Numbered from the stretch's first letter, positions 18,902 to 34,148 are shown. The stretch: DNA of 64,000 nucleotides from an uncultured Cytophagia bacterium (GCA_964647995.1 CAZYNP010000003.1:132571-196570), one strand, 5' to 3'. Notes: generated by a model from the letters alone, not told the origin. Numbers and translations are program-made.

Positions 18902-19348
18902 AAACCGCTGCACGATGTAAATTTGATTCATCACTCATAAATAAAATTGCCATCAGCAATGATCAAAATACAGAAGGCAATGGTCAATCTCGCATCCATC
19001 CCAAACTATTTTGCTGGTATCACCGAACTTTCAATTAGTGAAGGCCATGCCCGCTTCATAATACAGCAACCAACCAATCGACAAGCGTTCTGCACCGATC
19101 ATTTTTTTTCGGACAAATTCAGATTTCTAACCGTTCCAGGGGTGTTTTTGTTGCAGCCAATCGATACGTTCAAGCAGGAATACAAGGACATTTCACCAGG
19201 AAAGGAGGTGCCGCCCAAAAATTGACCGAACATTTTAATGTAGCTGCTGATCCTTATTTCAAAACCATGCTGTGAAAACGGCTGATGAAGTCGTTTAAAA
19301 AAATGGCCAGTTACAAAAATTTTGAACTGCAGATGGAGGCAAGAGTCT

Positions 19349-21391
19349 ATGAAAACACGGTTAATAATTATTCTCTCGCTGTTAGCCTTGTTCAATGCGA
19401 GCGCAATCCTGGCGCAAGCCAATATCGGTGGTCCCTATCAACCAGATTCCGCCACGGTGCTATTGATGCACTTCGATGGCAATTTGAATAATGAATCAAC
19501 TCTCTCGGCTGACGGAATTGGCCACGGCAGCCTCTATTACATCCCCAACAATGTTCCCGGTCTGGGCCAATGTTTGCGCATAGATAACGATTCGCAATCG
19601 GACTCGTCGTTCGTGATGGTACCGGATACTGCGGCTCTGGATATGACCGGCGATTGGACCATCGAGGGCTGGATCAACGTCTTTACCTTTGGGGAAGGAT
19701 CCAGCGACTGGCGTTGGGTTCCCCGCTTGTGCATCAAAACCGGCGATGAGGTTTTTTGGCGCCCCAACTATTTTGTGGAAATGTGGGGCAACAATCGGAT
19801 GTTTAGCTGCGGTTATCACACCGCCGATCAGAGTGCCTGGCCCCAGGTAAATACGCCCAACAACACGATGGAACCCGGGCGCTGGTTTCACCTAACCTTT
19901 ATTCGCGACACCTCCCGGCACATTCTGGTGCAGGTAGTGCATAACGACAAACGGGAACTCATCGTCTTTGCTGTAAAAGATTATAACACGTTTGAAGCTC
20001 CGCCCGATACACCGCCCATTACCACGAACCAGCCGCTTTATATCGGCTTTGCCGGTGGCGGTAACGATTCCTTTCTGGATGGCTTCGTAGACGAAATTCG
20101 CATCAGCAATGTAGTCCGCCAGATACCTATTCCACCCGCGATCACCGATGTCAAAATCATGGACAATCAAATTGCCAGTGTGACCTCCTATCCCATCGGT
20201 GCTGACATCGCCACGCTGTTCGGGACCAAAGTCACCAAAGCCACGTTGCATTACCAGATCAAGAACACATGGTATGAATTGCCCATGACCGAGGTTGCCA
20301 AGGATACCTTCTCCGCGGCGATTCCGGGACAGCCGGTGGGCACAGTGATCAAGTATTACCTGTCGGCTGAAGATGAATTTGGGATGCGCTCGCTCGATCC
20401 CCAAACCGCAGAAAGCGCGACGCCAGAATATTATACCTTTGGCGTTTACCAGCCCAATTCCCTGACCCTGGAGCTCACATTCGAAGAAGGCCAGGGGATC
20501 CCCAAAGATGCATCATCCTACAATCATGAGGTCAAGCTATTCGGCAATCCAACTTTCTCCACCGACACCAAAAACGGCAATTACGCCATTGCGTTAGAAG
20601 GAGATTCCAGCTACCTGGAGATCGACTCGCCATTTCTGCATAGCCGACAGTTCACCGTTGAGCTCTGGTTCTCGGCCGATACGATGATTCAGTATACGCG
20701 ACTCATGAACCGACCCATTGCCGAGGCCAACTGGTACCAGAACACCTATGAAATTCGCTTCCAGCCCAACCAAAAAATTTCCGCTGGGTCGTGGATTCCA
20801 ACCGGCAACCGTTATACCGTGAACGATCTGCAGGTCGACTATACGCTGGAGCTCAAAAAATGGTATCATGTGATTTTTGAGGTGACTGATTCGACCTCTA
20901 TTCTCCAATTGCGGGATGAAAATGACCAATTCCTGGGGCAAAAAGCGACCAAAATTCAAAATCCAGTGGTGCAGGCAACTGCGCCATTGCGCATCGGCTA
21001 TGCGGCTGGCCGACCACATTATAAAGGCCGCCTGGACAATATCAAGATCTATAACTACCCCGCGGCTAATTTGCAATCGGCGGTGGCAGCTCAGGATCGA
21101 AACCTGACTCCACGGCAGGTGGTACTGCATCAGAATTATCCCAACCCATTTAACCCAACCACCGAGATTCGGTTCTCGGTTTCTCAGCAGGTTCGGACCC
21201 AATTGGTAATCTATGATGTGCTGGGTCAAAAAGTTAGAACATTGGTGGATGCTACGTTCCAACCGGGCACCTATTCCTGCCAATGGGATGGCACCGACGA
21301 TGCCGGCCGGGTGGCGGCCAGTGGCGTCTATTTTTACAAATTGACTTCCGGCAACCAGGCACGAGTTCATAAGATGCTGCTGATTCGATAG
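19349..21391 (+). CDS. Secreted protein with two LamG/concanavalin-like domains, an Ig-like spacer and a PNPFN-type C-terminal sorting domain
   Basis: Signal peptide; DSATVLLMHFDGN...WTIEGWI...WFHLTF...GFVDEIRIS; second LamG (FTVELWF...WYHVIF...GRLDNIKIY); LHQNYPNPFNPTTEIRF...ASGVYFYKL...KMLLIR. Start 19349 after GGAGG. Confidence 0.85.
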   Translation: MKTRLIIILSLLALFNASAILAQANIGGPYQPDSATVLLMHFDGNLNNESTLSADGIGHGSLYYIPNNVPGLGQCLRIDNDSQSDSSFVMVPDTAALDMTGDWTIEGWINVFTFGEGSSDWRWVPRLCIKTGDEVFWRPNYFVEMWGNNRMFSCGYHTADQSAWPQVNTPNNTMEPGRWFHLTFIRDTSRHILVQVVHNDKRELIVFAVKDYNTFEAPPDTPPITTNQPLYIGFAGGGNDSFLDGFVDEIRISNVVRQIPIPPAITDVKIMDNQIASVTSYPIGADIATLFGTKVTKATLHYQIKNTWYELPMTEVAKDTFSAAIPGQPVGTVIKYYLSAEDEFGMRSLDPQTAESATPEYYTFGVYQPNSLTLELTFEEGQGIPKDASSYNHEVKLFGNPTFSTDTKNGNYAIALEGDSSYLEIDSPFLHSRQFTVELWFSADTMIQYTRLMNRPIAEANWYQNTYEIRFQPNQKISAGSWIPTGNRYTVNDLQVDYTLELKKWYHVIFEVTDSTSILQLRDENDQFLGQKATKIQNPVVQATAPLRIGYAAGRPHYKGRLDNIKIYNYPAANLQSAVAAQDRNLTPRQVVLHQNYPNPFNPTTEIRFSVSQQVRTQLVIYDVLGQKVRTLVDATFQPGTYSCQWDGTDDAGRVAASGVYFYKLTSGNQARVHKMLLIR

Positions 21392-21443: not shown

Positions 21444-21603
21444 GGGTTGGACATCTTAAGTCCCCATCGGCCTGCTGCCACTAGCCAGTCGCAGTGAACA
21501 ATCACGGATAAGCTGGCGTTGGCGGACGCAGGCTGGGCTCAGGCAATGAAATTTGGTTGAGTCAATACTCAAAACAGCAAGACGAAATCGAAAAGGTGAT
21601 TCC

Positions 21604-22212
21604 ATGAGTGTGGCCAAAGGTCTGTTCTTTCCATTGGGTGTCACAATTGCACTTGCGATCGGCATCCTGGTGCTGGGCTGTGATACGGGCATCGAAGTTT
21701 CTCCGGCGCCAGGAGTAATTCGGGTGACGCTGCAGTCCGATCCCGCCGATACTTCGATCATCATCATCAAAGACACCATTGCGGTTTCCGAACGGGACTG
21801 GTTCGGTGTAACCATCACGCAAGGGAAAATTTATCATGGCGACAATTTTGCCATTTTATTCAAAGATACCAAGAGCTATCGGGTGGAGGACGTTATCTAC
21901 AACATCCTGGAGCGGGAGGCGGGACAATACAAGAAGTTCACTATTTATGAATCGTATGCACCCCCCAATAGTTATGACAAACTGCAATTCGGCGTTACTG
22001 CCAGTTTGCTCCGCATGGGTTTTTTTAATATTCCGGTACAGCTCCGGCCTGGCGATGCGTTGCTGGTCGACCTGATTGCCAATTTTGACATCAAAGAAAA
22101 TCAAACTACCGAAATCAACGTTCAGATCAGCCCGTTCAAATCGGTCGTTCGCTATAAGGACACCTATTATTTCACGCGCCAGATGCAGATCATCGATGTG
22201 CGATATTATTGA
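21604..22212 (+). CDS. Uncharacterised lipoprotein (beta-sandwich, DUF4382-like)
   Basis: Lipobox LVLGC; beta-rich; YAPPNSYDKLQF...TTEINVQI. Start 21604 after AAAGGTG. Confidence 0.6.
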   Translation: MSVAKGLFFPLGVTIALAIGILVLGCDTGIEVSPAPGVIRVTLQSDPADTSIIIIKDTIAVSERDWFGVTITQGKIYHGDNFAILFKDTKSYRVEDVIYNILEREAGQYKKFTIYESYAPPNSYDKLQFGVTASLLRMGFFNIPVQLRPGDALLVDLIANFDIKENQTTEINVQISPFKSVVRYKDTYYFTRQMQIIDVRYY

Positions 22213-22241: not shown

Positions 22242-23693
22242 ATGAGCAATTCTTTCATCATCAAATTGGCACTAATTGCCAGCGGGCTGGTGTTATTGCT
22301 GGTGGCCTGTGAACGGGCGACATCGCCGGAAAATCCCAACCTTGTCCCCAACACCACCCTGGCCAACATTCCCGTCGAAAATGACACGCTATTTGCCCTG
22401 GTCACCTTGCACTGGGATGGTGAGGATAACGACGGCTATATTGCTGGCTATGAGTATCGCTATATTACTTCGCACCTGGTGCGCGGAGATTCTGTGGTGC
22501 AGCCGTGGCAGGAGACCAAGGAAACCAGCCTGACCATCGCATTTGAATCCAGCGACGCCTTCAATTATCAAAAATTTCAGGTGCGAGCGATCGATAATGA
22601 CGGCGATGTCGATCCAACACCGGCAGAAAAACGCTTTTATACCAAGCAAACCATTCTGCCCAAAACTGAAATCTTATTTCCCTCGAACAATCAAATTTTC
22701 TTTGCCATCGACCAGACCACCGACTGGTGGCCAGGTATCAAGTTGATCTTCACCGCGCGCGATGACGATGGCGAGGTGGTAGAATATGCCTGGGCTGTGG
22801 ATCAGAATGATTGGCATTGGATGAACGACACCATCGTCTACATTACGCCCGACAATTTTTTGCCTCTGGAGGGAAAACATAAAATTCGCGTTGCCTCACG
22901 GGACAACACCAATCTGGTAGACCCCATCGGCGATTCGGTGTTCGTGCAATTAATCAAGCCGAGCTTCAGTAAGCGCATTCTGGTGATCGATGAAACGGTC
23001 GAGTCGAAATTTCCGCTGGGCGTCGTGGCCAATGATGATTCTGTTGATAAATTCTATCAAGAGCTATTCCAACCGGATGACCAATGGGACTATACCAAAA
23101 AGGGCATGCCCGACAAAAAAACACTGGGTCAATACCAACTGCTGATCTGGCATGCCGACAATGCTTTCACCAGCGATCGTGATCCCCACAAGCTGCCCGA
23201 GCATATCGAGGACGTGATGGATTATCTGAATGTCGGGGGCGATTTTATCATGAGCGGCTGGCGTATTTTGAAATCGTTTGCCCCGCGGGAATCCTTCCCC
23301 AAGACCTTTCAGCCCGGCAGCTTTATCTATGACTATTTGCACATTATCACGGCTGATGAAACTCCGCTGGTGCCCAGTGATTTCACCGGCGCCATTAGTT
23401 TTAGCGGCTTCAGTCCCATTCGCGTCGATTCCTTCAAGCTGGCGGAAGCGTTTCCCTATGTGGGGAAACTCTCTCAGATCAATATCATTCCCGCACGTGG
23501 CGGATTCACCAGCAACATCTATATTTACGACAATGCCGCCGATGGCCTCACTGCGCCACGCGGCATGGCGTGCGGGCTGCGATATTATGGGACCAGCTTC
23601 GATGCGGTGGTATTCGGCTTCCCGATCTACTTCATCCGGAAGAGTGATGCCAAAACACTGGCTCAGGAGATTCTCCGCAGCCTGGGTTACTGA
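22242..23693 (+). CDS. Uncharacterised lipoprotein with two Fn3/Ig-like repeats and an alpha/beta C-terminal domain
   Basis: Lipobox LLVAC; repeats LHWDGEDNDGYIAGYEY...FQVRAIDNDG and FTARDDDGEVVEYAW...IRVASRDN; RILVIDE...YQLLIWHADN...YLNVGGDFIMSGW. Confidence 0.65.
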   Translation: MSNSFIIKLALIASGLVLLLVACERATSPENPNLVPNTTLANIPVENDTLFALVTLHWDGEDNDGYIAGYEYRYITSHLVRGDSVVQPWQETKETSLTIAFESSDAFNYQKFQVRAIDNDGDVDPTPAEKRFYTKQTILPKTEILFPSNNQIFFAIDQTTDWWPGIKLIFTARDDDGEVVEYAWAVDQNDWHWMNDTIVYITPDNFLPLEGKHKIRVASRDNTNLVDPIGDSVFVQLIKPSFSKRILVIDETVESKFPLGVVANDDSVDKFYQELFQPDDQWDYTKKGMPDKKTLGQYQLLIWHADNAFTSDRDPHKLPEHIEDVMDYLNVGGDFIMSGWRILKSFAPRESFPKTFQPGSFIYDYLHIITADETPLVPSDFTGAISFSGFSPIRVDSFKLAEAFPYVGKLSQINIIPARGGFTSNIYIYDNAADGLTAPRGMACGLRYYGTSFDAVVFGFPIYFIRKSDAKTLAQEILRSLGY

Positions 23694-23925
23694 TTGCGGC
23701 CTTTTTCTCCGAACCAGCCTGGTATCCTGATGGCTTCGTAGCTGAACGCTCAGGAGACGGGAGGCCTGTCAATACCAAAATCATTTCTTCGCCGTTCAAT
23801 GGCCAACATAATATTGAGTGGGCGATGAACAGGATCGAAATCATGTCTGACCAATTGAAACTGGCAGCAGCAATCGTTTAAAGCAGTTGGCAACTTAATA
23901 TTTCTTCATGAGTGAAGGAGAAATA

Positions 23926-26751
23926 ATGGTGGTCTCAACGAAAACAATTTTCATCGGCATAACGATTATCATCCTCATCTGGCCATTTGGGGCATGGGCT
24001 GGCAATACCGGCAAAATTGCCGGCACGGTCACCGACAAGCAGTCTGGTGAGCCCCTGGCGGGCGCCAATGTGATGATCAAGGGCACCACACTGGGCGCTG
24101 CCGCCGATAACCATGGCAATTATTACATTCTACAGGTGCCGCCAGGGACCTATGAAGTTACTGCCAGCATGATGGGTTATCACCGCATCACAACCACGAA
24201 TGTAAAGGTCAATGTGGATTTGACGACGCGGCTCAATTTCAAGCTGGAATCCACGGCCATCGAGTTTCCAACGCTGACGGTGGTTGCCGAAGAGCCGCTG
24301 GTGCAGTTGGATATTACTTCGACTCGCAAAAAAACCGCTCGTGAAGAGATCGAGTCGGTGCCGGGTCTGGAACAGACCAAAGATATTTTCACCCTCTACG
24401 GTGGCGCCGTGCTCGACGCCAGTCCACAAAGCCTATTGTTGGGCGATGGCACGCAGCTTCAGGTGCGGGATGAAAGTCTGCGCGATGTTCATATTCGCGG
24501 CGGTCGCGGCGGCGAAATCCTATTTATGGTCGATGGGATGCCGGTCACTCATCCCATTTACGGGGGGCGGGATGTGCTGGACCTGAATGTTGTGGATGTG
24601 GAATCGGTGGAACTATTGACCGGAGCGTTCAATGCCGAGTATGGACAGGCGCAGTCCGGTGTGGTCAATATCACCACCCGAACTGGCAGCGACCGCTTTA
24701 CTGGTGGCATCGAGTATAAGAATGACCAACTTGGTGTCGTTGGCGAATCCTATGACACCCATTACGCTTCATTCTATCTGGGAGGACCCGAGCTCATCAG
24801 CCGCCGGCTATTGCCCAAATTGGGTTTGCAGCTACCCGGCAAACTGAATTTTTTTATTTCCAGCAACGCCACGATGACCAATACGACTTACAACAATCAC
24901 CGCCATCGCGAAGATATCTCAGTGCTGGGCATTACGCTGAAGGAAAAACAGGACAACACGGGCAATTTCAATGCTAAAATCGGCTGGGATCTGACCGATC
25001 AATTCAACATGGTGTTCAGTTATCACGGCTCCTGGAAGCGCTGGAGCAATTTTAACTGGCTCTGGCTCTATTATCCCGACCACACTTCATTGTTCAAGCG
25101 CAACAACCAGAATCTGAACTGGAAAATTACCCACACCTTATCCAAAGCGACGTTCTATAACCTGAATCTCGGCTATCTGGCAGTGGATTACAACGGCTCG
25201 CTGGATGGGAGACGGCCGCCCGACTTCTGGACCTTCTATAAAGACAGCATCGCCTATGATTATTATAGCTATATTCGAAATTTTTCCGACGCACCTGATG
25301 ATGATAAAGGCATCACCGCGCCGCAAATCGATCCGCTGACCCTGTTCTACAATCAATACGGCTATGAAAACATCTGGCGCGACGATTTGACCCGGACTTT
25401 GACCTTCAAAGGCGATGTCACCTCCCAAATTCATCCCGAGCATCTCATCAAAACCGGAATCGAACTTCGCTTCAATGATCTGCAATATATTGACATTCAG
25501 GACGGTGGCGCGATGCTTTCCAATTATGGCAAATATCGGTTCGAAAATGACAACTATGCGCCACCACCGCCGGGACCATTTAAAGAATTCGGCCAAAATC
25601 GCTGGGTCTTTCATGCCAAACCCATCATCGGCGGTTTTTACCTCCAGGATAAATTCGAAAAGGAGAGCTTGATCATCAACGCAGGTCTGCGACTCGACTA
25701 TTTTTATATGGGAAAAATGGTGAACCAGGCGGATTGGAAGAACGCCTGGATCGATGCCACGGGGTTGACGCCCGATTGGAGTTCGTTCAAATATAAGTTC
25801 AGCCCGCGCTTTGGCATTTCTTTTCCCATTTCCATCACCACCGTGGTGTTCTTTTCCTATGGCCATTTCAACCAGTTACCGGAACTCCAATACTACTATC
25901 GTGATCCCTGGACCGGTGCGTTTGCCGGCAATCCATTTCTGGATTATGAGCAAACCATCCTTTATGAGTTTGGCTTTACGCATCAACTGTTCAAGGATTG
26001 GGCGGTTGACATCAAAAGCTACACCAAAGATATCTCGCAACAGGTGCAAACCACCTATCTTCGGGCCTCCCGAGGAACTCCAGTATACTTGTACGATAAC
26101 AAAGGCTATGCCCGCGCCCGGGGACTGGAGTTTGAATTGCGCAAGCGTTACTCCTATTTTACTTCCGGAAAACTGACCTACACCGTGCAATGGGCCAATG
26201 GGTATTCGTCTTCCGCTTTCGATGACTATATCCGCTCGACCAATGATTTTCCCAATCCTATTCGTGAGCGCCGACTAAATTGGGATATTCGGCATCAAAT
26301 TATTTTTCAGGCGTCATTGGATATGCCACCCAATCGTCATCCCAACGTATTGGGTTTGAAGCTGCCCGACGATTGGAACATTACGGTGCTATCTCGCTAC
26401 TCCTCCGGCAAGGCCTATACGCCGGGCACACTCGACCCAGCCGAAGCGCAGAAGAAGGAAAATTCCAAAAACGGTCCCAGCACCATGTCCACCGACCTGA
26501 AGATCAATAAATCATTTCCTGTGGCCGGCCTGTCGTTGTCATTATTTGCCGATATTTTCAACCTATTCGACCAGAAAAATGTCCAGATCGAATACGCTTT
26601 TAATCCCTGGTCCGGCAAGCCATACAAGTATGGGGATCTGGTGTCGCCGACCAAACAATATTATACCTGGTACTCCATGTTCAATTTGATGGACCCACGG
26701 CAATTTAGCCCGGGACGCACCGTAAAAATCGGCTTGCGATTGGATTGGTAA
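23926..26751 (+). CDS. TonB-dependent receptor with N-terminal carboxypeptidase-regulatory-like domain
   Basis: GKIAGTVTDKQSGEPLAGANVMI; plug HIRGGRGGEILFMVDGMPV...LLTGAFNAEYGQAQSGVVNITT; barrel motifs NAGLRLDYF, FSPRFGISFP; ends GLRLDW. Start 23926 after AAGGAG. Confidence 0.93.
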   Translation: MVVSTKTIFIGITIIILIWPFGAWAGNTGKIAGTVTDKQSGEPLAGANVMIKGTTLGAAADNHGNYYILQVPPGTYEVTASMMGYHRITTTNVKVNVDLTTRLNFKLESTAIEFPTLTVVAEEPLVQLDITSTRKKTAREEIESVPGLEQTKDIFTLYGGAVLDASPQSLLLGDGTQLQVRDESLRDVHIRGGRGGEILFMVDGMPVTHPIYGGRDVLDLNVVDVESVELLTGAFNAEYGQAQSGVVNITTRTGSDRFTGGIEYKNDQLGVVGESYDTHYASFYLGGPELISRRLLPKLGLQLPGKLNFFISSNATMTNTTYNNHRHREDISVLGITLKEKQDNTGNFNAKIGWDLTDQFNMVFSYHGSWKRWSNFNWLWLYYPDHTSLFKRNNQNLNWKITHTLSKATFYNLNLGYLAVDYNGSLDGRRPPDFWTFYKDSIAYDYYSYIRNFSDAPDDDKGITAPQIDPLTLFYNQYGYENIWRDDLTRTLTFKGDVTSQIHPEHLIKTGIELRFNDLQYIDIQDGGAMLSNYGKYRFENDNYAPPPPGPFKEFGQNRWVFHAKPIIGGFYLQDKFEKESLIINAGLRLDYFYMGKMVNQADWKNAWIDATGLTPDWSSFKYKFSPRFGISFPISITTVVFFSYGHFNQLPELQYYYRDPWTGAFAGNPFLDYEQTILYEFGFTHQLFKDWAVDIKSYTKDISQQVQTTYLRASRGTPVYLYDNKGYARARGLEFELRKRYSYFTSGKLTYTVQWANGYSSSAFDDYIRSTNDFPNPIRERRLNWDIRHQIIFQASLDMPPNRHPNVLGLKLPDDWNITVLSRYSSGKAYTPGTLDPAEAQKKENSKNGPSTMSTDLKINKSFPVAGLSLSLFADIFNLFDQKNVQIEYAFNPWSGKPYKYGDLVSPTKQYYTWYSMFNLMDPRQFSPGRTVKIGLRLDW

Positions 26752-26819: not shown

Positions 26820-28610
26820 ATGATCAAAAAAAGCACATTGGTTTTCCTTTATAGCGTCGCCCTGTTCACCCCCCTCCTGGCCCAGCAAACCACGCTGGAT
26901 TGGAAATTGCACACGGTCGGTCGGGTGCGGCAGGTGGTCACCAATACCGGTGGCTTGAACGCCAAGCAGGACAATCTCTTCGACTTTCCGCGGCTGATCA
27001 ACTGCGAGTATCCGCCCAACACCTTTGAGGAACACATCACTGAGGCTGGCCTGTGGATCGGCGCAATTGTGGGCCAGGATAGTCTGGTGTCGGTGGCACA
27101 GGGCGAAGCTTCGTCGCGCGAATTTTACCCCAGCGACGCCCCATGGGACACCATCTGGGTGGTGAATCGAGGCGACACGGTCGATATTCCCTATTGGCCG
27201 CGATACGTCGGCATTTCCGATCAGGATTTTGTCTGCCGCTATTCCGATTACAATCCCGTCAGCTTGCGCGTGCCCAACCACCAGCCGCTCTACCTTGATG
27301 TGATCCAAACCAGCTATGCCTGGAGTTCCAATCCGCTGGACGAATTTATTGTCATCAGGTATTACATCATGCCTACGAAAATCGATCTGCAAGATGTTTA
27401 CCTTACCAGTTGGATCAACGGCAATGTGGGCTATGCGGGCAATGAAGAGTATGGGCTGGATGACGAAACCTATTCCCGCATGGATCGCTTGATGCAAATC
27501 TGTGTGGATCTGCCCGGCGGCGGCGATGGTGACGCCATCGGTGCTATCGCCACGAAAGTTTATCCGCCCAGCAATGCTCCCCCGCCGCCCAAAGCGACGT
27601 TCATCTGGTACAACGGTCGGCTGCAAGGTCTCCCCTACCGTGATGGCGAGCGCTTCGAGCAGATGAGCCGCGGGATGGTGATGCAGGACCAGTCCAGCAC
27701 CGGTGACGGCACCAAGTCCATGATCTCCATTGGTCCCTATTCCGTTCGGGTGGGCGACACCCTGAAATTTTCGGTGGGCATAATTCTGGGCCAGGGCATC
27801 CGCGGCGTTCTCGCCAATGCAGATTATCTGGATTGGCTGATCGATCAGAATTTCGCGATCCCATCGCCGCCACCCGCGCCACCGCTGCGCGTCGAATCTC
27901 GACATCAGCAAGTCGTTCTGAACTGGAGGCCTCGACCTGGCGACGTCAATCCCGAGATTTATCGCGATCCCAATCGTGCTGATGGCGAACTGCAGCCATT
28001 CGAGGGCTATCGTGTCTATAAAAGCACCCGCAGCGCCACCGGCCCCTGGACCTTACTGGCCGAATTCGATGTGCCGGATAATGCGTTTTATCAAAATACC
28101 GGGCTGGAATACGAGTACACCGATATTGGCCTGTTGAATAATCTGGAATATTATTACACCGTCACCGCCTTTTCCAAGCCCGATGCGGTAATTCATTTTC
28201 CCTCACTGGAATCCAGTTTGAATGCCAATTCCCGACGGGTTGTGCCCGGCCCGGAACCACCGCAAACCGTGGGTCAGGTAGCGGTGGTGCCCAATCCTTA
28301 CCGCGGCGATATTGCCTATCACGCCTATAATCCCCCCTGGGAGAAACCGGACATTTCCCGCGACTTTTGGATGGAACAGGATCGCCGGATTCAGTTCATC
28401 AATTTGCCCGCCCGCTGTGAAATCAAAATCTACACCCTGGCGGGTGATCTGGTGAGCCGGCTAACTCATGCCAATCCGACCCAGGGTTATGAAGATTGGA
28501 ACCTGACTTCCAGCGTGGGGCAGGCCATTTCCAGCGGGATCTATCTTTTTACCGTCGAAGATCTGAGCAATGGGAAAGTGCAGGTGGGCAAATTTATTAT
28601 CATCAAATAG
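26820..28610 (+). CDS. Secreted protein: beta-rich N-domain, Fn3 and 'VPNPY'-type C-terminal domain (paralog 1)
   Basis: Signal peptide; WKLHTVGRVRQVVTN; FEGYRVYKS...YEYTDIGLLNNLEYYYTVTAF; VVPNPY...IQFINLPARCEIKIYTLAGDLV...SGIYLFTVE...GKFIIIK. Confidence 0.75.
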   Translation: MIKKSTLVFLYSVALFTPLLAQQTTLDWKLHTVGRVRQVVTNTGGLNAKQDNLFDFPRLINCEYPPNTFEEHITEAGLWIGAIVGQDSLVSVAQGEASSREFYPSDAPWDTIWVVNRGDTVDIPYWPRYVGISDQDFVCRYSDYNPVSLRVPNHQPLYLDVIQTSYAWSSNPLDEFIVIRYYIMPTKIDLQDVYLTSWINGNVGYAGNEEYGLDDETYSRMDRLMQICVDLPGGGDGDAIGAIATKVYPPSNAPPPPKATFIWYNGRLQGLPYRDGERFEQMSRGMVMQDQSSTGDGTKSMISIGPYSVRVGDTLKFSVGIILGQGIRGVLANADYLDWLIDQNFAIPSPPPAPPLRVESRHQQVVLNWRPRPGDVNPEIYRDPNRADGELQPFEGYRVYKSTRSATGPWTLLAEFDVPDNAFYQNTGLEYEYTDIGLLNNLEYYYTVTAFSKPDAVIHFPSLESSLNANSRRVVPGPEPPQTVGQVAVVPNPYRGDIAYHAYNPPWEKPDISRDFWMEQDRRIQFINLPARCEIKIYTLAGDLVSRLTHANPTQGYEDWNLTSSVGQAISSGIYLFTVEDLSNGKVQVGKFIIIK

Positions 28611-28631
28611 AAGTTAGCAACAGCTCCAACG

Positions 28632-28648
28632 CCGGATCAGCGATCCGG
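28632..28648 (+). other. Small intergenic hairpin between the paralogs
   Basis: CCGGATC-agc-GATCCGG. Confidence 0.4.
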
Positions 28649-28813
28649 AGGGCCATGGCAGTTGCGCCGCGAAGGCAGGCGGCTCGCCTTGATAATTGAG
28701 CGCACTCCAACAACCGCTGATACTGCCATCCGTTGCAAGCCAAAAGTCAGTCAAAGGCGTTGTCGAGCCGAATCATAATTTATTGGGCCATAATTTAATC
28801 CATTGAGGGCAAC

Positions 28814-30601
28814 ATGCGTGGAGCCATAAGCAAAACGATTTTCATCCTGTTATCAACCGCCATTACCGTTTTTGCCCAGCGCACAACGCTGGATTGGAAG
28901 GTACACAATGTCGGTAAGGTGCGACAGCTTATCACCAATATGGGTGCGTTATGGACTGCGTCCACCGACTATCCGGGCCTGATCTATTGTGAATATCCTC
29001 CCAATAGTCATGAGGAACACATCGGCGAAGCCGGCATCTGGGTGGGCGCCATCACGCCGGAAAATGATACCCTGGTCTCGGCCACAACCATCTGGGCCGA
29101 TCCCCATTTTGAATTTTACCCATCGGCCGCACCCGATGATACGGTCTGGGTGATCAACAAAGGCGATACGGTCAACATACCCTATTGGGGCCGATATACC
29201 GCCATTGCCGATCAGGATTTCGTTTGCCGGTACAGTGACTATTATCTGACCAATATCGGCGACCATCGGCCGTTGTATCTGGATGTCATTCAAATCAGCC
29301 ACGCCTGGAGTTCGTATCCGCTGGACGAGATGATTGTGTTTGAATTTTACGTTATCCCGACACGAAAAAATCTATCGCAGGTGTATATCGCTTACTGGAT
29401 GGACGGCAATGTGGGCTACCGCGGGGAAGGCTGGGGCTTTGCGCTGGACGATCTATCCTATTATTATGCCGACCGAAATCTGGCAGCGTCCATCGATCCC
29501 CCCACCGGAGAGGACGAGGCTGCCATCAGTCCCCTGGGCGTAAAAATCTTCCCCTCGGTCAAAATTCCGCCCTCGACGTTGCGCTGGACGTTTAATTGGT
29601 ACCCCGGCGGAGGTGCCGGTGGGCCAGCGGATCGTGATGGTGTGCTGCATCAGGAAATTAGCGCCGGCACCATCATGCGCAACCAGCAAAGCGGGGATGG
29701 CTCGCAGTTCATTCTCTCTTACGGGCCTTTGACTTTGGCCGTGGGCGATACGGCTTATTTTCGCGTCGGTCTGATATTGGGCGAAGGCGAAGCCAAAATG
29801 CTGGCCAATGCCGATCGATTGGATTGGCTGGTGCAAAAGGATTTTAGAGTTCCGGCGCCGCCACCGCTGCCTCCCTTGCGACTGGAAGCACGCTCGCATG
29901 AGATTACCCTGCGCTGGTCGCTTCAGCCGGGCGATATCGATCCCGAGACCTATCGCGATCCCAATCGTGCCGACAATGCAACCCAGCCGTTCGAGGGGTA
30001 CCGGGTCTACAAGAGCACTCGCAGCAAAACCGGCCCCTGGACCCTACTGGCCGAGTACGACGTACCCGCCAATCAATTCTTTTTGAATACCGGTCTACAA
30101 TATGAATATACAGATATCGGTCTATTGAACAACCTGGAATATTACTATACCGTCACCGCCTTTTCCAAGCCCGACCTGGAGATCGATTTTCCATCCCAGG
30201 AATCCAGCAAGAATGCCAATGCCAAATTGGCTGTCCCCGGCACCGCTGCCCCAGCTACTGTTGGCGAAGTCGCCGTGGTTCCCAATCCCTATCGCGGGGA
30301 TATTGCCTATCATGCTTACAATCCTGCCTGGGAAAAGCCCACCGGCACGCGTGATCGCTGGATGGAGCAAGATCGTCGCATTCAATTCATCAATTTGCCG
30401 GCACGTTGTGAGATCAAAATCTACTCGCTCGCCGGCGATTGGATTGTCACGATCCCGCACGACAATCCTCAGCAAGGCTATGAAGACTGGAATTTAACCT
30501 CAGCGGTGGGCCAGGCAATAGCCAGTGGCATCTATCTATTCACCGTTGAAGACATCACCAACGGCAAAGTTCAAATTGGCAAATTTGTGGTCATTAAATA
30601 A
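28814..30601 (+). CDS. Secreted protein: beta-rich N-domain, Fn3 and 'VPNPY'-type C-terminal domain (paralog 2)
   Basis: Colinear with 26820-28610 (WKVHNVGKVRQLITN; DQDFVCRYSDY; near-identical Fn3 and tail ending GKFVVIK). Confidence 0.75.
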   Translation: MRGAISKTIFILLSTAITVFAQRTTLDWKVHNVGKVRQLITNMGALWTASTDYPGLIYCEYPPNSHEEHIGEAGIWVGAITPENDTLVSATTIWADPHFEFYPSAAPDDTVWVINKGDTVNIPYWGRYTAIADQDFVCRYSDYYLTNIGDHRPLYLDVIQISHAWSSYPLDEMIVFEFYVIPTRKNLSQVYIAYWMDGNVGYRGEGWGFALDDLSYYYADRNLAASIDPPTGEDEAAISPLGVKIFPSVKIPPSTLRWTFNWYPGGGAGGPADRDGVLHQEISAGTIMRNQQSGDGSQFILSYGPLTLAVGDTAYFRVGLILGEGEAKMLANADRLDWLVQKDFRVPAPPPLPPLRLEARSHEITLRWSLQPGDIDPETYRDPNRADNATQPFEGYRVYKSTRSKTGPWTLLAEYDVPANQFFLNTGLQYEYTDIGLLNNLEYYYTVTAFSKPDLEIDFPSQESSKNANAKLAVPGTAAPATVGEVAVVPNPYRGDIAYHAYNPAWEKPTGTRDRWMEQDRRIQFINLPARCEIKIYSLAGDWIVTIPHDNPQQGYEDWNLTSAVGQAIASGIYLFTVEDITNGKVQIGKFVVIK

Positions 30602-30664: not shown

Positions 30665-31585
30665 ATGACACGAAAAATCATCATCGCCATCTTTATGTTT
30701 GCAAACGTCGCCCTGGCTCAATATGAACGACCAGGCAGCACCGATGCCCAATTTCTAAAAATTGGTGTCAGTGCTCGTGCTACCGGCATGGCCGACGCCT
30801 ATATCGCCGTTGCCGAGGGAGCTGAGGCCATGTACTACAATGTCGCTGCGCTGGCTCGGATTCCCAGCACCGATCTGGTATTCAATCACACCAGTTGGTT
30901 CGCCGGTATCAACCATGATTTTGTGGGTGTGGCACGAACCTTCGGTCGTGCTGGTACTTTCGGGGTGTCTCTGACTGCATTGTACACGGACGAAATGACC
31001 GTGCGAACGCCCCTGCGGCCCGATGGCACCGGCGAAACTTTCTATGCCAGTAATTTGCGCGCCGGAATTAGCTACGCTCGTTATTTGACCGATCGAGTCA
31101 CCTTTGGCGGCTCCATTAATTACATCAACCTATCCCTTTACTCCGACTTCCAGGCCGATGCTGTCTCCATGGACATTGGCATCCTGTACGTCACCAACTT
31201 TCGGAATTTCCGATTTGGGATGAAAATTGCAAATTTCGGCTCCGAAGTCAAGTTCGTCAATGAATCGTATCCGCTGCCGACCCATTTCACCTTTGGCATG
31301 GCCATCAATGCCGTGGATGCGGCTGCGCAAAAATTGCTGGTCAGCTTTGCCGCCTTGAAACCGAACGATGGCCAGCCGTTGGGCCAGGTCGGCGCTGAAT
31401 GGAATTACCAGAATTTGCTGTTTCTCCGAACTGGCTATCGCTTGAATCATGACGTAGCATCCTATTCTTTTGGTACCGGGGTTAAACTGAAAATTAGCGA
31501 CTATGCATTTCGCTTCGACTACTCCTACAGCGATTTTTCCCTATTGGGTCAGAGTCACCGGTTCGGAGTTGGGGTGTCGTTTTAG
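30665..31585 (+). CDS. PorV/PorQ-family (UPF0164) outer-membrane beta-barrel
   Basis: AQFLKIGVSARATGMADAY...AMYYNVAALA...HTSWFAGINHDF; amphipathic strands; ends FGVGVSF. Start 30665 or 30638. Confidence 0.85.
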   Translation: MTRKIIIAIFMFANVALAQYERPGSTDAQFLKIGVSARATGMADAYIAVAEGAEAMYYNVAALARIPSTDLVFNHTSWFAGINHDFVGVARTFGRAGTFGVSLTALYTDEMTVRTPLRPDGTGETFYASNLRAGISYARYLTDRVTFGGSINYINLSLYSDFQADAVSMDIGILYVTNFRNFRFGMKIANFGSEVKFVNESYPLPTHFTFGMAINAVDAAAQKLLVSFAALKPNDGQPLGQVGAEWNYQNLLFLRTGYRLNHDVASYSFGTGVKLKISDYAFRFDYSYSDFSLLGQSHRFGVGVSF

Positions 31586-31703: not shown

Positions 31704-34148
31704 ATGGACACACCTGGTGATAAAATTGTTCGGATTATCTTGTTGGTAATTTCAGGCAGCATGATGGTTGGTCAAAATCTAGCCGCCCAGGGGGAAGATT
31801 ACATCTATTACAAAAATTTCGTCCGGCACGCCAGCGGCGATGCCTGCAAGCATCTGCCACCGGCGGTGTCCTTCACGGTTTATCTCAACCAGGATCAGAC
31901 CAAAATCCTTACCGAGCAGGCTCCCCGCTGGGCCATCGGCGCCGACCCCAATATTCCCGGCAACGGCATTTTCGGCATCGAATTGGGAAACTTTGCCAAT
32001 CCCGAAGTTACGATTGGCGATACCGTTTGCATTCGTTTCACCTGCAATGAAACCCGGCAGCAGGGCTTGCTCACCGGCATTGTCACCGGCATCCCCTGGA
32101 TTACTTTTCCGCAGACGCTGTACCTGTCCGCGGTGGCCTTGCCTGAAGCGCCCCGAGAAATCACCCTCACCACCGATGAGCACCGGCATCGCATCCTGAA
32201 TTGGCAAGGAGTCCCGGGTGTCAGTTACTCCATCTATCGCCGCGCGCTGAGCGATACCGTGCGCACCGGCCAGGCCCGAATGATGTATCAACTTGTCGCC
32301 CAGAATATCATGGGCAATAGCTACCAGGATACCAGTGCCCTGACCCATGAAAAATATGGTTATCTCCTCTATGCGACCTCCAAAGAGGGCGTCACCAGTT
32401 CACACTCCCAGGAAGTGAACGAAGCACCGATCATTCACGAAGGCGATGACCTGACCATCGGCTGGATTGCCCGGCTGCCGCGGCTGAACTATGTCTGGGC
32501 CAGTCCCAACCCGAAAGTCGACGGCTGGCCGCAGGTAGGACAATTGGTCATCTGGCAGGCAATAGTAAAGAATTGGACCGCGACAGATCTGGCCCGCGTC
32601 AAATATTTGTGGTTTTGGGATGGCAGTCCGGTGGATTCTGGCTGCGTCGACCTTCCAGCCGGCGATACCGCCAGCGTCAACTTTGCCAACCCGTGGTCGT
32701 TCGATCGCCATGTGCTAACGCTGAGCCTTGATCCTGATAACCAGGTGGCCGAAGAGGAGGAACGAAATAACCAGTTATCCATTTTCACCGATGCCATTAG
32801 CGTGGGTTTTTACGTCGAACAGAGCCTGTACGACTATTTCCATCAATATCAGAAGCAGCTTCAGGTTCATGCCAATTGCTGGGAGGACTGGGCGCAACGT
32901 CACGTGCGGCGGTGGAATCAGATGTTTGCAGCGGCGATCTTCCCGGATACCCCACAGGGCGTCCTGGATCGAATTCGCATCGACCAAATTACCGTGGTGC
33001 CCGATGGCGCCTTGCCGTTAGCTGGCGGCGAGTTGCCGACCAATTTTCCCAATTTGCGTGATCGCACCGTAGATCTGCAATGGGGTTTTCCAGCGAGCCT
33101 GCTCAATGGTGACGGCTATAAGAATCACACCAGCGCCGTGGACAACAATCCTTTCTACTTCGAGGGCTCCTTGCTTCACGAATTGGGCCATGCTCGCTAC
33201 CTTATCGATCTCTATGGCTTCAATGTCCATGATAATGGCCGCGGCAACACCGTCGCCGTCAAAGAAAACGGTCGCTTAATTGTGGGCACGCCTTATTTAC
33301 CGCTGATGGGCGATGCGGTCCATTATACTCCAATCAAGGGCTTGATGAACGGCGAATACACTTTTATTGACGCTTATTCGGCCGCTGCACTCAATCTCAT
33401 CGCCGGGCACCGAGCAACGCAGGGCAATTATAATTCGCCAGGGAACATCGGAATTTTTATGAACGACCTGCCCCAGCAAAACATCCTTCTGATCCAGGAT
33501 GATAACGGACGTCCCCTGGATTACGCCGATGTCAAAATCTACCAGGCTACCGGTAACGCTGGCCAATGGTACGGCAAATTTTTCGATGACCAACCCGACC
33601 TATCCCTGAGCACGGACGAGAACGGCGAAGTGTTTGTCGGACGCTGTCCCTTCGATGCCGATGGCACGATCGAGCATGATTATGGCAAATCCAATGCGGT
33701 GGTGCTATTGCGGGTAGCTCATAATGGTCGGGTTGGATACACGTTTTTGGAATCCACCCAATTCAACATGGAATACTGGCGCGGGCATTCGGCCGTGGGC
33801 AAATACGAGGTGCGGGTGCCGTTAATCGAGCCGCCGAGCGCGGTGGTTGAAACAGCCGATGCTGAACCAACCGCTTTTCAGTTACATCCCTGTTATCCCA
33901 ATCCCTTCAATTCAACCACCTTTGTTAAGTACAGCCTGCCCGAGCCAGGCCAAACCGTAGTTCAGGTTTTCGATGTCACGGGCCGGGAAATTATCCGGCT
34001 CTGCGACAGGGCTCAGCCTGCTGGCTGCTATCAATTGCGATGGGAGGCAACATCCATGGCTCGCCAGCCTCTGGCTGCCGGTGTTTACTTCATTCGGCTG
34101 ACGCTGAAAAATTATAGTGCCACCCAAAAGGTCATCTACCTGAAATAA
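31704..34148 (+). CDS. Secreted zinc metalloprotease (M6-like HExxH) with Fn3, CARDB-like domain and PNPFN tail
   Basis: LLHELGHARYLIDLY; CARDB-like WQAIVKN...LDPDNQVAEEEERNN; HPCYPNPFNSTT...AAGVYFIRL...KVIYLK. Confidence 0.7.
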   Translation: MDTPGDKIVRIILLVISGSMMVGQNLAAQGEDYIYYKNFVRHASGDACKHLPPAVSFTVYLNQDQTKILTEQAPRWAIGADPNIPGNGIFGIELGNFANPEVTIGDTVCIRFTCNETRQQGLLTGIVTGIPWITFPQTLYLSAVALPEAPREITLTTDEHRHRILNWQGVPGVSYSIYRRALSDTVRTGQARMMYQLVAQNIMGNSYQDTSALTHEKYGYLLYATSKEGVTSSHSQEVNEAPIIHEGDDLTIGWIARLPRLNYVWASPNPKVDGWPQVGQLVIWQAIVKNWTATDLARVKYLWFWDGSPVDSGCVDLPAGDTASVNFANPWSFDRHVLTLSLDPDNQVAEEEERNNQLSIFTDAISVGFYVEQSLYDYFHQYQKQLQVHANCWEDWAQRHVRRWNQMFAAAIFPDTPQGVLDRIRIDQITVVPDGALPLAGGELPTNFPNLRDRTVDLQWGFPASLLNGDGYKNHTSAVDNNPFYFEGSLLHELGHARYLIDLYGFNVHDNGRGNTVAVKENGRLIVGTPYLPLMGDAVHYTPIKGLMNGEYTFIDAYSAAALNLIAGHRATQGNYNSPGNIGIFMNDLPQQNILLIQDDNGRPLDYADVKIYQATGNAGQWYGKFFDDQPDLSLSTDENGEVFVGRCPFDADGTIEHDYGKSNAVVLLRVAHNGRVGYTFLESTQFNMEYWRGHSAVGKYEVRVPLIEPPSAVVETADAEPTAFQLHPCYPNPFNSTTFVKYSLPEPGQTVVQVFDVTGREIIRLCDRAQPAGCYQLRWEATSMARQPLAAGVYFIRLTLKNYSATQKVIYLK

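What the first reader, a model, noticed from the sequence alone, without database searches (positions are those of the whole stretch)
26820..30601. Tandem paralogs: variable N-domain loops, near-invariant Fn3 and a distinct 'VPNPY' sorting tail
Sequence: the C-terminal ~250 aa are nearly identical in protein with synonymous DNA differences (e.g. TAT TAC vs TAC TAT), while the N-domains keep only a framework and differ in loops. Their tail (VVPNPY...IQFINLP..CEIKIY.LAGD...WNLTS.VGQAI.SGIY...GKF..IK) differs from the PNPFN tails of four other proteins in the window. Known: Flavobacterium type-B CTD cargos need a co-encoded cognate PorP/SprF. Inference: a third CTD class with cognate PorV-like adaptor, and two receptors with different ligand specificity.
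Basis: partly seen in the sequence, partly recalled or inferred. Interest (0 to 1): 0.72.

Follow-up and report, generated by a model that had tools for sequence, protein, structure and literature searches.

The report
Surface-protein paralogs with PorV-linked tail
Two neighbouring genes encode ancient sister proteins of a large unnamed family whose unusual secretion-type tail is almost always encoded between a TonB-dependent outer-membrane transporter and a PorV/PorQ-like barrel, which points to an undescribed nutrient-capture machine in relatives of the Bacteroidota.

Summary
The paralogs are real: A at 26820-28610 and B at 28814-30601, 60% identical. The C-terminal 250 aa are 75% identical, not nearly identical. 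Synonymous sites are saturated and dN/dS is 0.04-0.38, so this is an old duplication under purifying selection.

The tail is a T9SS-type C-terminal sandwich, homologous to the window's ordinary PNPFN tails (hhalign 95.7%). It carries an invariant 29-aa insert after the PNPY strand and fails TIGR04183 (16.5 bits or no hit, cutoff 23). Ordinary tails here score 38-41 bits.

The tail is not a modular signal. It occurs almost only on one unannotated superfamily: a beta-supersandwich domain, an Fn3-like domain, then the tail.

In 77 genomes from KSB1, Calditrichota, Ignavibacteriota and Fidelibacterota the family sits in a fixed operon. The order is lipoprotein, SGBP-like lipoprotein, TonB-dependent transporter, one to three family copies (orthogroups A-B-C), then a PorV/PorQ-family barrel. 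The barrel lies directly downstream in 57/65 loci. A Cloacimonadota version carries ExbB-ExbD-TonB inside the operon.

Best reading, which is inferred: these are surface receptor subunits of a utilisome-like importer, exported by T9SS and held by a retained tail on the dedicated barrel, as PorZ is held on PorQ.

The parts
21553..22212 (+). Small predicted lipoprotein (219 aa; start codon uncertain; lipobox LVLGC). First gene of the conserved core operon.
   Evidence: No Pfam or NCBIfam hit. A homolog lies upstream of the transporter in 51/51 testable loci.
22242..23693 (+). 483-aa lipoprotein (lipobox LLVAC) with two Fn3/Ig-like domains and a C-terminal alpha/beta domain. It resembles a Bacteroides surface glycan-binding protein (SGBP).
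   Evidence: The AF2 model has pLDDT 86.7. The best Foldseek PDB hit is 8aa2_G, a chain of the levan utilisome (E 8.8e-10, three orders of magnitude better than the next hit). Bt1761 has the same three-domain layout (bioRxiv 10.1101/2022.08.15.503959). A homolog lies upstream of the transporter in 48/51 loci.
23908..26751 (+). TonB-dependent transporter (947 aa) with CarboxypepD_reg, Plug and 22-strand barrel domains, and a TonB-box-like PTLTVVA near aa 122-128.
   Evidence: Pfam scores are all above cutoff: CarboxypepD_reg 74 bits, Plug 34.7, TonB_dep_Rec_b-barrel 53.7. It lies directly upstream of the first family copy in 59/64 loci. Orthologous transporters occur in the distant triads (238-386 bits). 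ExbB-ExbD-ExbD-TonB genes sit inside the Cloacimonadota version of the operon.
26820..28610 (+). Paralog A (orthogroup A; 596 aa from the ATG at 26820). It has a signal peptide ending LLA/QQ, a beta-supersandwich N-domain, an Fn3-like domain and the variant tail.
   Evidence: It has no Pfam hit.
28284..28607 (+). Variant T9SS-type tail of paralog A. The conserved insert RGD...WEKP...WMEQDRR lies at about 28302-28388.
   Evidence: TIGR04183 scores 16.5 bits (cutoff 23) and the PorZ C-terminal region 25.3 bits. The tail is homologous to ordinary tails by hhalign.
28814..30601 (+). Paralog B (orthogroup B; 595 aa). Domains: signal peptide aa 1-21 (VFA/QR), N-domain about aa 23-345, Fn3-like about aa 355-475, tail aa 487-595.
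   Evidence: The AF2 model has pLDDT 87.5. In Foldseek the N-domain resembles the N-terminal sandwich of GH94, GH149 and GH116 enzymes, and the middle domain resembles Fn3. More than 545 homologs share 57-100% identity.
30293..30379 (+). 29-aa insert in the tail of B (R494-R522), between the PNPY strand and the next strand. Its key residues are invariant across phyla, yet it is predicted to be disordered in the monomer. It is the candidate docking element.
   Evidence: Invariant columns are listed. pLDDT is below 50 at residues 495-499 and 501-519. The motif is kept in distant members, for example PNPYRxDxxY..WE..W.E..RR.
30665..31585 (+). PorV/PorQ-family outer-membrane barrel (306 aa from the ATG at 30665; the ORF from the TTG at 30638 is 315 aa). 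It is the proposed dedicated anchor or shuttle.
   Evidence: NF033709 scores 183.9 bits (cutoff 90). The PorQ equivalog scores 80.5 bits (cutoff 220) and the PorV equivalog 65.5 bits (cutoff 250). Orthologs are 306 aa long and named 'PorV/PorQ family protein'. Synteny is shown.
19322..21391 (+). Accessory gene: a 689-aa protein with a Laminin_G_3 domain and an ordinary type A T9SS tail. It usually precedes the operon.
   Evidence: Pfam Laminin_G_3 80 bits and Por_Secre_tail 29.7 bits. TIGR04183 38.4 bits. Synteny is shown.
31704..34148 (+). Accessory gene: an 814-aa protein with an HELGH motif and an ordinary type A T9SS tail. It is not part of the core operon.
   Evidence: TIGR04183 39.8 bits. 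A true ortholog directly follows the PorV/Q gene in only 10/51 loci.

Best explanation
A and B are two of three ancient orthogroups (A, B, C) of an unannotated, deeply conserved family of secreted proteins. Each protein has a Sec signal peptide, a ~320-aa beta-supersandwich domain, an Fn3-like spacer and a variant T9SS-type C-terminal sandwich. The supersandwich resembles the non-catalytic N-domains of GH94 and GH116 enzymes and is probably glycan-binding.

The family belongs to a fixed operon: small lipoprotein, SGBP-like lipoprotein, TonB-dependent transporter, one to three family copies, and one PorV/PorQ-family barrel.

Proposed mechanism:
1. The proteins cross the outer membrane through the type IX secretion system, using the variant tail.
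2. The tail is not cut off. Its invariant 29-aa insert docks it onto the co-encoded PorV/PorQ-like barrel, in the way PorZ is held by PorQ and PorU by PorV.
3. This fixes the sandwich domains at the cell surface next to the transporter.
4. Together with the two lipoproteins they capture, and perhaps process, a substrate for TonB-powered import. The whole would be a utilisome-like complex in phyla that lack SusCD.
5. All paralogs share the single barrel. That would explain why the tails stay about 80% conserved while the N-domain block aa 186-300 has diverged.

Shown here: the domain architecture, the homology of the tail to T9SS tails, the operon conservation, the orthogroups and purifying selection.

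Inferred: T9SS dependence, tail retention, docking to the barrel, the import role and the glycan substrate.
For: Tail:
- hhalign of the tail profile against the window's ordinary tails gives 95.7% probability and E 1e-8.
- All 60 family members tested give a weak hit to the PorZ C-terminal region (best 5.8e-8), 47/60 to TIGR04183 and 29/60 to the PorU C-terminal region.
- The two best PDB sequence matches are the tails of PorU (6za2) and PorZ (5m11), although neither is significant.
- The tail spans about 108 residues, like the uncleaved PorU (108) and PorZ (96) tails and unlike cleaved ones (67-88) (PMC11285876).
- The insert is invariant but has low pLDDT, as expected for an interface element.

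Linkage:
- The PorV/Q gene is directly downstream in 57/65 loci, and the transporter directly upstream in 59/64.
- lipo219 precedes the transporter in 51/51 loci and p483 in 48/51.
- Distant members (680-1130 aa) keep the order transporter, family, PorV-like, and often a p483-like gene.
- The Cloacimonadota operon contains ExbB-ExbD-ExbD-TonB.

Neighbours and context:
- p483 best matches the levan utilisome chain 8aa2_G, which has the domain layout of the SGBP Bt1761.
- The N-domain fold resembles GH94, GH149 and GH116 N-domains.
- The barrel is PorQ-sized (306 aa) and fails the PorV equivalog.
- The same window holds a second PorV-family-like barrel and a PorD-like T9SS gene. The genome therefore has T9SS parts and more than one such barrel.
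- The precedent for retained tails on cognate barrels is described in PMC10202324 and PMC12365241.
Against: - There is no experimental evidence of any kind, and no cultured-organism data were found.
- T9SS dependence and tail retention cannot be read from sequence.
- Ordinary type A tails in this window also hit the PorU C-terminal region (39 bits), so similarity to PorU and PorZ is not specific to this tail.
- The matches of the N-domain and of p483 to known folds have low TM-scores (0.27-0.34), so 'glycan' is a weak inference.
- About 60% identity across phyla is unusually high for a substrate-specific uptake system. It hints at a more basic role.
- A few family copies stand alone, without a barrel or transporter nearby (L001, L048, L052, L082).
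- It was not shown that the barrel is not simply the organism's general PorV.
Confidence: 0.45

Rival explanations
1. The proteins are ordinary T9SS cargo. The tail is a divergent type A signal that is cleaved after export, and the proteins are released or linked to lipopolysaccharide. The downstream barrel is simply the organism's general PorV shuttle, which happens to be encoded here.
For: The tail is homologous to type A tails. Ordinary type A cargo genes flank the operon. Only family-level assignment of the barrel was possible. No canonical PorV was identified elsewhere in these genomes.
Against: The tail fails TIGR04183, whereas ordinary tails in the same window pass easily. The invariant 29-aa insert and about 80% tail conservation across phyla go far beyond what a cleaved signal needs. 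The barrel is 306 aa and scores 65 bits against a cutoff of 250 on the PorV equivalog. A second PorV-family-like barrel lies beside a PorD-like gene 22 kb away. The barrel co-diverges with the family in distant triads.
Confidence: 0.17
2. The TonB-dependent barrel is an exporter rather than an importer. Like Oar, which Myxococcus needs to secrete the protease PopC, it moves the family proteins across the outer membrane using TonB/ExbBD energy. The unusual tail and its insert are the recognition signal, and the PorV-like barrel is the surface anchor. Export would be independent of the type IX translocon.
For: There is a precedent for a CarboxypepD_reg-type TonB-dependent transporter required for protein secretion (PMC6434023). 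Gene order is fixed as transporter then family, and ExbBD-TonB lies between them in Cloacimonadota. The tail does not qualify as a canonical T9SS signal.
Against: The window's transporter has no hit to the Oar-like barrel model PF25183; one distant ortholog has only a faint hit. A 600-aa three-domain folded protein is a large passenger for a plugged 22-strand barrel. The tail is clearly of T9SS type and its partner is a T9SS-family barrel. The SGBP-like lipoprotein fits import better.
Confidence: 0.1
3. The family proteins are enzymes or structural surface-layer components, and their link to the transporter is indirect. The many invariant Asp, Glu and His residues in the N-domain form a catalytic or metal site, for example for processing a polymer at the cell surface.
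For: Invariant residues include E60, E68, H69, D85, D109, D133, D135, D142, H151, D212, D228 and D234, with a near-invariant C138. The motifs persist in distant members (SEQDF, HxPLG, YxDxDxG). Cross-phylum identity is very high. Beta-helix (NosD-like) genes occur in some distant operons.
Against: The closest folds are non-catalytic sandwich domains. No catalytic family matches by sequence. This reading does not exclude the anchoring model.
Confidence: 0.15

Closest known systems
PorZ-PorQ and PorU-PorV pairs of the Porphyromonas gingivalis T9SS attachment complex
   Same: A secreted protein keeps its C-terminal T9SS domain and is held on the outer membrane by binding a PorV/PorQ-family barrel (PMC12365241, PMC10202324). 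The tail here gives its best, though weak, matches to the PorZ and PorU tails and is of similar length. The partner is a PorV/PorQ-family barrel of PorQ-like size.
   Different: The N-terminal parts are unrelated: there are no PorZ beta-propellers and no PorU peptidase domain. The tail has a 29-aa insert after the first strand. The genes lie in a TonB-dependent transporter operon, in phyla outside Bacteroidota. One barrel serves one to three paralogs.
Type B CTD cargo with cognate PorP/SprF shuttles (e.g. SprB/SprF in Flavobacterium johnsoniae)
   Same: A non-type-A tail is genetically linked to a dedicated PorV-like barrel, which is needed for secretion and anchoring (PMC9143113, PMC12618676).
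   Different: The tail does not match TIGR04131 at E<=0.1. The barrel belongs to the PorV/PorQ family, not PorP/SprF (TIGR03519 19 bits against a cutoff of 90). The tail occurs on a single protein superfamily rather than on varied adhesins.
Type A CTD (TIGR04183 / PF18962)
   Same: Both are C-terminal seven-strand sandwiches with a PNPx first strand, an IY..G...V motif, W....G....SG.Y and a K-rich end. hhalign gives 95.7% probability.
   Different: The tail scores below the curated cutoffs. It has a 29-aa invariant insert and is far more conserved than a generic signal.
SusCD utilisomes of Bacteroides (e.g. the levan utilisome, PDB 8AA2)
   Same: A TonB-dependent transporter is encoded together with surface proteins that capture substrate. 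The 483-aa lipoprotein has the two Ig-like domains plus alpha/beta domain layout of the SGBP Bt1761, and its best structural match is a chain of 8AA2.
   Different: There is no SusD homolog. The transporter is not SusC-type (TIGR04056 77 bits against a cutoff of 368). Some surface subunits would be anchored through a T9SS-type tail and a barrel rather than through a lipid.
Oar, the TonB-dependent transporter required for PopC secretion in Myxococcus xanthus
   Same: Both are CarboxypepD_reg-Plug-barrel outer-membrane proteins functionally tied to a secreted protein (PMC6434023).
   Different: No Oar-like barrel model matches here. PopC has no T9SS-type tail and no PorV-like partner.

Membership tests
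T9SS type A C-terminal domain (TIGR04183 / PF18962) | Score at or above the curated cutoff of the family model | tested here: not met
   Paralog A scores 16.5 bits (cutoff 23) and paralog B has no hit. Pfam Por_Secre_tail gives no hit for A or B. Across 60 members, 47 give weak TIGR04183 hits (best E 1e-4) and 8 give weak Pfam hits. Ordinary tails in the window score 38-41 bits.
T9SS type A C-terminal domain (TIGR04183 / PF18962) | C-terminal beta-sandwich homologous to known CTDs | tested here: met
   The AF2 model shows a strand-rich sandwich at aa 487-595 with pLDDT 84-95 outside the insert. hhalign against the window's type A tails gives 95.7% probability and E 1e-8 over the last 67 aa.
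T9SS type A C-terminal domain (TIGR04183 / PF18962) | Secretion depends on the T9SS, and the tail is cleaved by PorU | not testable with these tools
   This requires genetics and proteomics in a cultured relative.
T9SS type B C-terminal domain (TIGR04131 / PF13585 CHU_C) | Match to the family model | tested here: not met
   TIGR04131 gives no hit at E<=0.1. CHU_C gives only weak sub-threshold hits in 20/60 members (best 3e-4).
T9SS type C C-terminal domain (NF033708, ChiA type) | Match to the family model | tested here: not met
   No hit for any of the 60 members at E<=0.1.
PorZ (NF052228) | Full-length match including the two beta-propeller domains | tested here: not met
   Only model positions 688-757 (the tail) match, at 25.3 and 16.4 bits against a cutoff of 260. 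The N-domain fold is a supersandwich.
PorV/PorQ family (NF033709), for the gene at 30638-31585 | Score at or above the family cutoff | tested here: met
   183.9 bits against a cutoff of 90. Orthologs are named 'PorV/PorQ family protein' by NCBI.
PorV proper (NF033710) or PorQ proper (NF033711), for the gene at 30638-31585 | Score at or above the equivalog cutoff | tested here: not met
   PorV scores 65.5 bits (cutoff 250), PorQ 80.5 bits (cutoff 220) and PorV2 62 bits (cutoff 325).
TonB-dependent transporter, for the gene at 23908-26751 | Plug domain plus TonB-dependent barrel above the Pfam cutoffs | tested here: met
   Plug scores 34.7 bits (cutoff 23.9) and the barrel 53.7 bits (cutoff 27).
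TonB-dependent transporter, for the gene at 23908-26751 | Energised by TonB-ExbB-ExbD | tested here: inconclusive
   There is a TonB-box-like PTLTVVA motif in the sequence. ExbB, two ExbD genes and TonB_C lie inside the orthologous Cloacimonadota operon. None of these genes is in the window's operon.
SusC/RagA (TIGR04056), for the gene at 23908-26751 | Score at or above the family cutoff | tested here: not met
   77.5 bits against a cutoff of 368, covering the N-terminal 230 aa only.
Fibronectin type III domain (PF00041), middle domain of A and B | Match to the family model, or an Fn3 fold | tested here: inconclusive
   Pfam fn3 gives weak hits in only 2/60 members. Foldseek gives many Fn3 matches at E 1e-5 to 1e-6.

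The most novel reading that the evidence does not exclude
The triad of TonB-dependent transporter, sandwich-Fn3-tail proteins and PorQ-like barrel, together with two lipoproteins, is a previously unrecognised outer-membrane machine. It is conserved at about 60% identity across Ignavibacteriota, Calditrichota, KSB1, Fidelibacterota, Zhuqueibacterota and, in expanded form, Cloacimonadota. It would be a SusD-less counterpart of the Bacteroides utilisome, in which the receptor subunits are delivered by the type IX system and permanently plugged into a dedicated barrel through a retained, insert-bearing tail. This would directly couple type IX secretion to TonB-dependent import.
Probability: 0.35. 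Interest if true: 0.8.

Novelty: new variant of a known kind. Interest (0 to 1): 0.64.

Why it matters
No Pfam or NCBIfam model covers this family. Every public copy seen is labelled 'hypothetical', and five full-text literature searches found no description of it. Even so, the tail profile alone finds 1,164 cluster representatives at E<=1e-10, and the operon is among the most conserved envelope loci in several poorly studied phyla.

If the model holds, three things follow:
- The 'cognate barrel holds a retained tail' principle, known from PorZ-PorQ and from type B cargo with PorP/SprF, would extend beyond Bacteroidota and beyond the secretion machine itself.
- It would show how organisms without SusD build surface receptor complexes around a TonB-dependent transporter.
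- It would give a sequence signature (PNPYRxDxxY...WE...WxExxRR) for annotating thousands of genes.

The system is directly testable in cultured Melioribacter roseus, Ignavibacterium album and Caldithrix abyssi.

Tried and rejected
- Positive or diversifying selection on the N-domain: rejected. dN/dS is 0.04-0.38 in every 50-codon window and synonymous sites are saturated.
- Variation confined to loops: rejected. Identity is 54% at strand and helix positions and 48% at coil positions.
- Recent duplication or gene conversion keeping the tails alike: rejected. DNA identity in the tail is only 70%, with pS 0.82. A and B fall in separate cross-phylum orthogroups.
- Tail as a modular signal on unrelated cargo: first suggested by hits 680-1130 aa long, then rejected. 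These proteins share the whole architecture, and 76/79 also match the N-domain profile.
- p814 as a core operon member or as the barrel's client: rejected. A true ortholog is adjacent in only 10/51 loci.
- A first synteny count using stop-to-stop ORF coordinates gave false negatives (43/66). It was replaced by tblastn coordinates.
- UPGMA clustering was dominated by outliers. It was replaced by a neighbour-joining tree.
- Promoter and terminator scans showed no enrichment over shuffled sequence.
- No RNA runs are available, only hot-spring and sludge metagenomes.
- PDB sequence searches were uninformative for p483 (none found), p814 and the barrel (PorV 6h3i at E 0.22).
- The literature searches found no description of the family or the operon.

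Full report
**What is at the coordinates.** Two same-strand ORFs lie in tandem. Paralog A runs from 26796 (TTG) or 26820 (ATG; the finding's start) to 28610. Paralog B runs from 28814 to 30601. BLASTP gives 60% identity over the full length. Both begin with a Sec-type signal peptide followed by Gln (LLA/QQ and VFA/QR). The window matches a candidate division KSB1 MAG at 94% protein identity and is found in hot-spring metagenomes.

**Checking the observation.** A codon-level comparison (Nei-Gojobori) gave these protein identities:
- N-domain (aa 31-355): 52%, falling to 34-46% around aa 190-310
- middle domain: 74%
- tail: 77%
- last 249 aa overall: 75.5% protein identity and 71% DNA identity

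So 'nearly identical' is too strong. The proportion of synonymous differences is 0.64-0.90, which is saturated. dN/dS is 0.04-0.38 in every window. This is an old duplication under purifying selection, not a recent copy and not diversifying selection. Divergence is not loop-specific: strand and helix positions are 54% identical and coil positions 48%. It is concentrated in a contiguous block, aa 186-300.

**The tail.** Pfam finds nothing in A or B. NCBIfam gives only sub-threshold hits, all to the last ~70 residues: the PorZ C-terminal region (25.3 and 16.4 bits), TIGR04183 (16.5 bits for A against a cutoff of 23; none for B) and the PorU C-terminal region. The window's four PNPFN tails behave differently. 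Three score 38-41 bits on TIGR04183, and the fourth scores 28 bits on Pfam Por_Secre_tail.

Across 60 family members, all 60 touch the PorZ tail (best 5.8e-8), 47 touch TIGR04183 and 29 touch PorU. None touches the type B or type C models. A profile of 28 tails aligned to the four ordinary tails gives hhalign probability 95.7% and E 1e-8 over the last 67 residues. In the PDB, the two best sequence matches are the tails of PorU (6za2) and PorZ (5m11), but neither is significant.

The tail is therefore a genuine T9SS-type sandwich. What sets it apart is a 29-residue insert (RGDxxYxxYxPxWExxxxxRxxWxEQDRR) between the PNPY strand and the next strand. The key residues of the insert are invariant across phyla. 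The insert is the only low-confidence part of an otherwise good AlphaFold model (pLDDT below 50 at 495-519; mean 87.5). That is the behaviour expected of a segment that folds on a partner. At about 108 residues, the tail matches the uncleaved PorU and PorZ tails (108 and 96 residues) rather than cleaved ones (67-88; PMC11285876).

**The rest of the protein.** The model shows three parts: a ~320-aa beta-supersandwich, an Fn3-like domain and the tail. By Foldseek, the supersandwich resembles the non-catalytic N-terminal domains of GH94, GH149 and GH116 enzymes and of dextran dextrinase (TM 0.28-0.34 on the whole query, about 350 aligned columns). The middle domain matches many Fn3 domains. Many Asp, Glu and His residues in the N-domain are invariant.

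**How widespread the family is.** More than 545 close homologs exist, all about 595-600 aa long and 57-78% identical. They come from KSB1, Calditrichota, Ignavibacteriota, Fidelibacterota/Marinimicrobia and Zhuqueibacterota. All carry no Pfam domain and are labelled 'hypothetical'.

A tail-profile search of 1.84 billion cluster representatives found 35 hits at E<=1e-30, 1,164 at E<=1e-10 and 6,004 at E<=1e-3. Hits 680-1130 aa long at first looked like other cargo carrying the same tail. Reading them showed the same architecture, with large insertions in the N-domain. Of 79 full-length proteins among the best 150 hits, 76 also match an N-domain profile. They have no Pfam domains and include Cloacimonadota. 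The tail is therefore family-specific, like the tails of PorZ and PorU. It is not a general sorting class.

**Genomic context.** A scan of one genome per species returned 77 loci. tblastn with the window's neighbouring proteins shows a fixed order: (LamG protein with an ordinary tail), 219-aa lipoprotein, 483-aa lipoprotein, TonB-dependent transporter, one to three family copies, PorV/PorQ-family barrel. The counts are:
- The barrel is directly downstream of the last family copy in 57/65 testable loci. In five of the eight exceptions it is elsewhere in the same locus.
- The transporter is directly upstream of the first family copy in 59/64.
- The two lipoproteins precede the transporter in 51/51 and 48/51.
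- The 814-aa protein after the barrel is a true neighbour in only 10/51, so it is not a core member.
- Among fully flanked loci, 23 have one family copy, 28 have two and 5 have three. There is always a single barrel.

A neighbour-joining tree resolves three orthogroups that keep the order A-B-C. The window has A and B, Calditrichota mostly B and C, and many Ignavibacteria a single C. Only 10 sites are conserved differently between A and B.

Of six very distant members examined, five keep a transporter upstream and four keep a PorV-like barrel downstream. Those transporters and barrels are orthologous to the window's, and the gene after the barrel is p483-like in two of them. In Cloacimonadota, ExbB, two ExbD genes and TonB sit between the transporter and the family gene.

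**The neighbouring genes.** The transporter has CarboxypepD_reg, Plug and barrel domains above cutoff but is not SusC-type. The barrel passes the PorV/PorQ family model (183.9 bits) but none of the PorV, PorQ or PorV2 equivalogs. It is 306 aa long, which is PorQ-like in size.

The 483-aa lipoprotein was modelled with pLDDT 86.7 and has two Fn3/Ig-like domains plus an alpha/beta domain. Its best structural match, by three orders of magnitude, is chain G of the Bacteroides levan utilisome 8AA2. By its length (435 aa) that chain is taken to be the surface glycan-binding protein Bt1761, which has the same three-domain layout. TM-scores are low (0.27-0.29) because the domains are flexibly linked.

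About 22 kb further on, the window also holds a PorD-like T9SS gene (114 bits, cutoff 170) and, divergent from it, a second and weaker PorV-family-like barrel (57 bits, cutoff 90). The genome therefore has type IX parts and more than one such barrel.

**Interpretation.** The literature establishes three relevant points:
- PorZ and PorU keep their tails and are held on the cell by PorQ and PorV (PMC12365241; PMC10202324).
- Type B cargo depends on cognate PorP/SprF barrels (PMC9143113, PMC12618676).
- Type A, B and C tails are already defined (PMC10202324).

Against that background, the best-supported reading has three parts. The family proteins are exported by the type IX system. They stay attached through a retained, insert-bearing tail docked on the dedicated barrel. 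They then act as surface receptor or processing subunits of a TonB-dependent importer, together with the two lipoproteins. One shared barrel for all paralogs would explain why the tails are the most conserved part (0.80 mean column conservation, against 0.49-0.56 in the variable block).

Every step after 'homologous tail, conserved operon' is inference. The glycan guess rests on weak fold matches. Rivals are an ordinary cleaved cargo served by a general PorV, an Oar-like export role for the transporter (PMC6434023), and an enzymatic or structural role for the N-domain.

**Verdict.** It needs three corrections:
- The tail is a type-A-derived, family-specific tail, not a third general class.
- The TonB-dependent transporter is as much a partner as the barrel.
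- Different ligand specificity of A and B is plausible but untested.

I found no description of this family or operon in the searched literature. I rate it a new variant of a known kind, with above-average interest.

Noticed in passing
window 52796-53698 (-) and 53643-54692 (+): These two genes are divergently oriented. One is a PorD-like T9SS protein (NF052317, 114 bits, cutoff 170). The other is a second, weaker PorV/PorQ-family-like barrel (NF033709, 57 bits, cutoff 90). Together they show that the genome has type IX parts and more than one PorV-family barrel.
   Followed up: partly
window 22242-23693 (+): This 483-aa lipoprotein is about 55-78% identical across phyla and has no family assignment. 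Its predicted structure best matches chain G of the Bacteroides levan utilisome (8AA2), taken to be the SGBP Bt1761.
   Followed up: yes
L081 7589-9982 (Cloacimonadota contig): ExbB, two ExbD genes and a TonB_C gene are inserted between the transporter and the family gene of the orthologous operon. Three tandem ~725-aa proteins with T9SS tails follow.
   Followed up: partly
L079 7858-9999 and L083 5884-7902: In two distant versions of the operon, a beta-helix (NosD/pectate-lyase-like) protein lies between the transporter and the family gene. This hints at polysaccharide processing.
   Followed up: no
window 31704-34148 (+): This 814-aa protein has an HELGH (HExxH) motif, a weak CARDB hit and an ordinary type A tail. 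It may be a secreted metalloprotease. It is adjacent to the barrel in only 10/51 loci.
   Followed up: partly
window 35117-38731 (+): This 1204-aa protein combines a CotH kinase domain, two lamin-tail domains, a chitobiase C-terminal domain and an ordinary type A T9SS tail.
   Followed up: no
window 12986-15919 (+): A GH116-family beta-glucosidase-like protein (Glyco_hydr_116N 224.7 bits, DUF608 158.6 bits). Its N-domain belongs to the fold class that the paralogs' N-domain resembles.
   Followed up: no
window 26772-27911 (-), 28949-29302 (-), 29453-29899 (-), 30122-30475 (-): Long antisense ORFs overlap the paralogs. They have no support and are most likely by-products of codon composition.
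   Followed up: no
L001 (CP070762.1), L048, L052, L082: These family copies stand alone, without the transporter or barrel nearby. In two Balneolaceae loci only the LamG protein is adjacent. Whether a partner barrel lies elsewhere in those genomes is unknown.
   Followed up: no
L058, L068, L037, L050 (record titles): These operon copies sit on contigs binned as archaeon, Archaeoglobus, Spirochaetota or Caldisericaceae. Their sequences cluster with Calditrichota and related groups in the tree, so the bins are probably contaminated.
   Followed up: no
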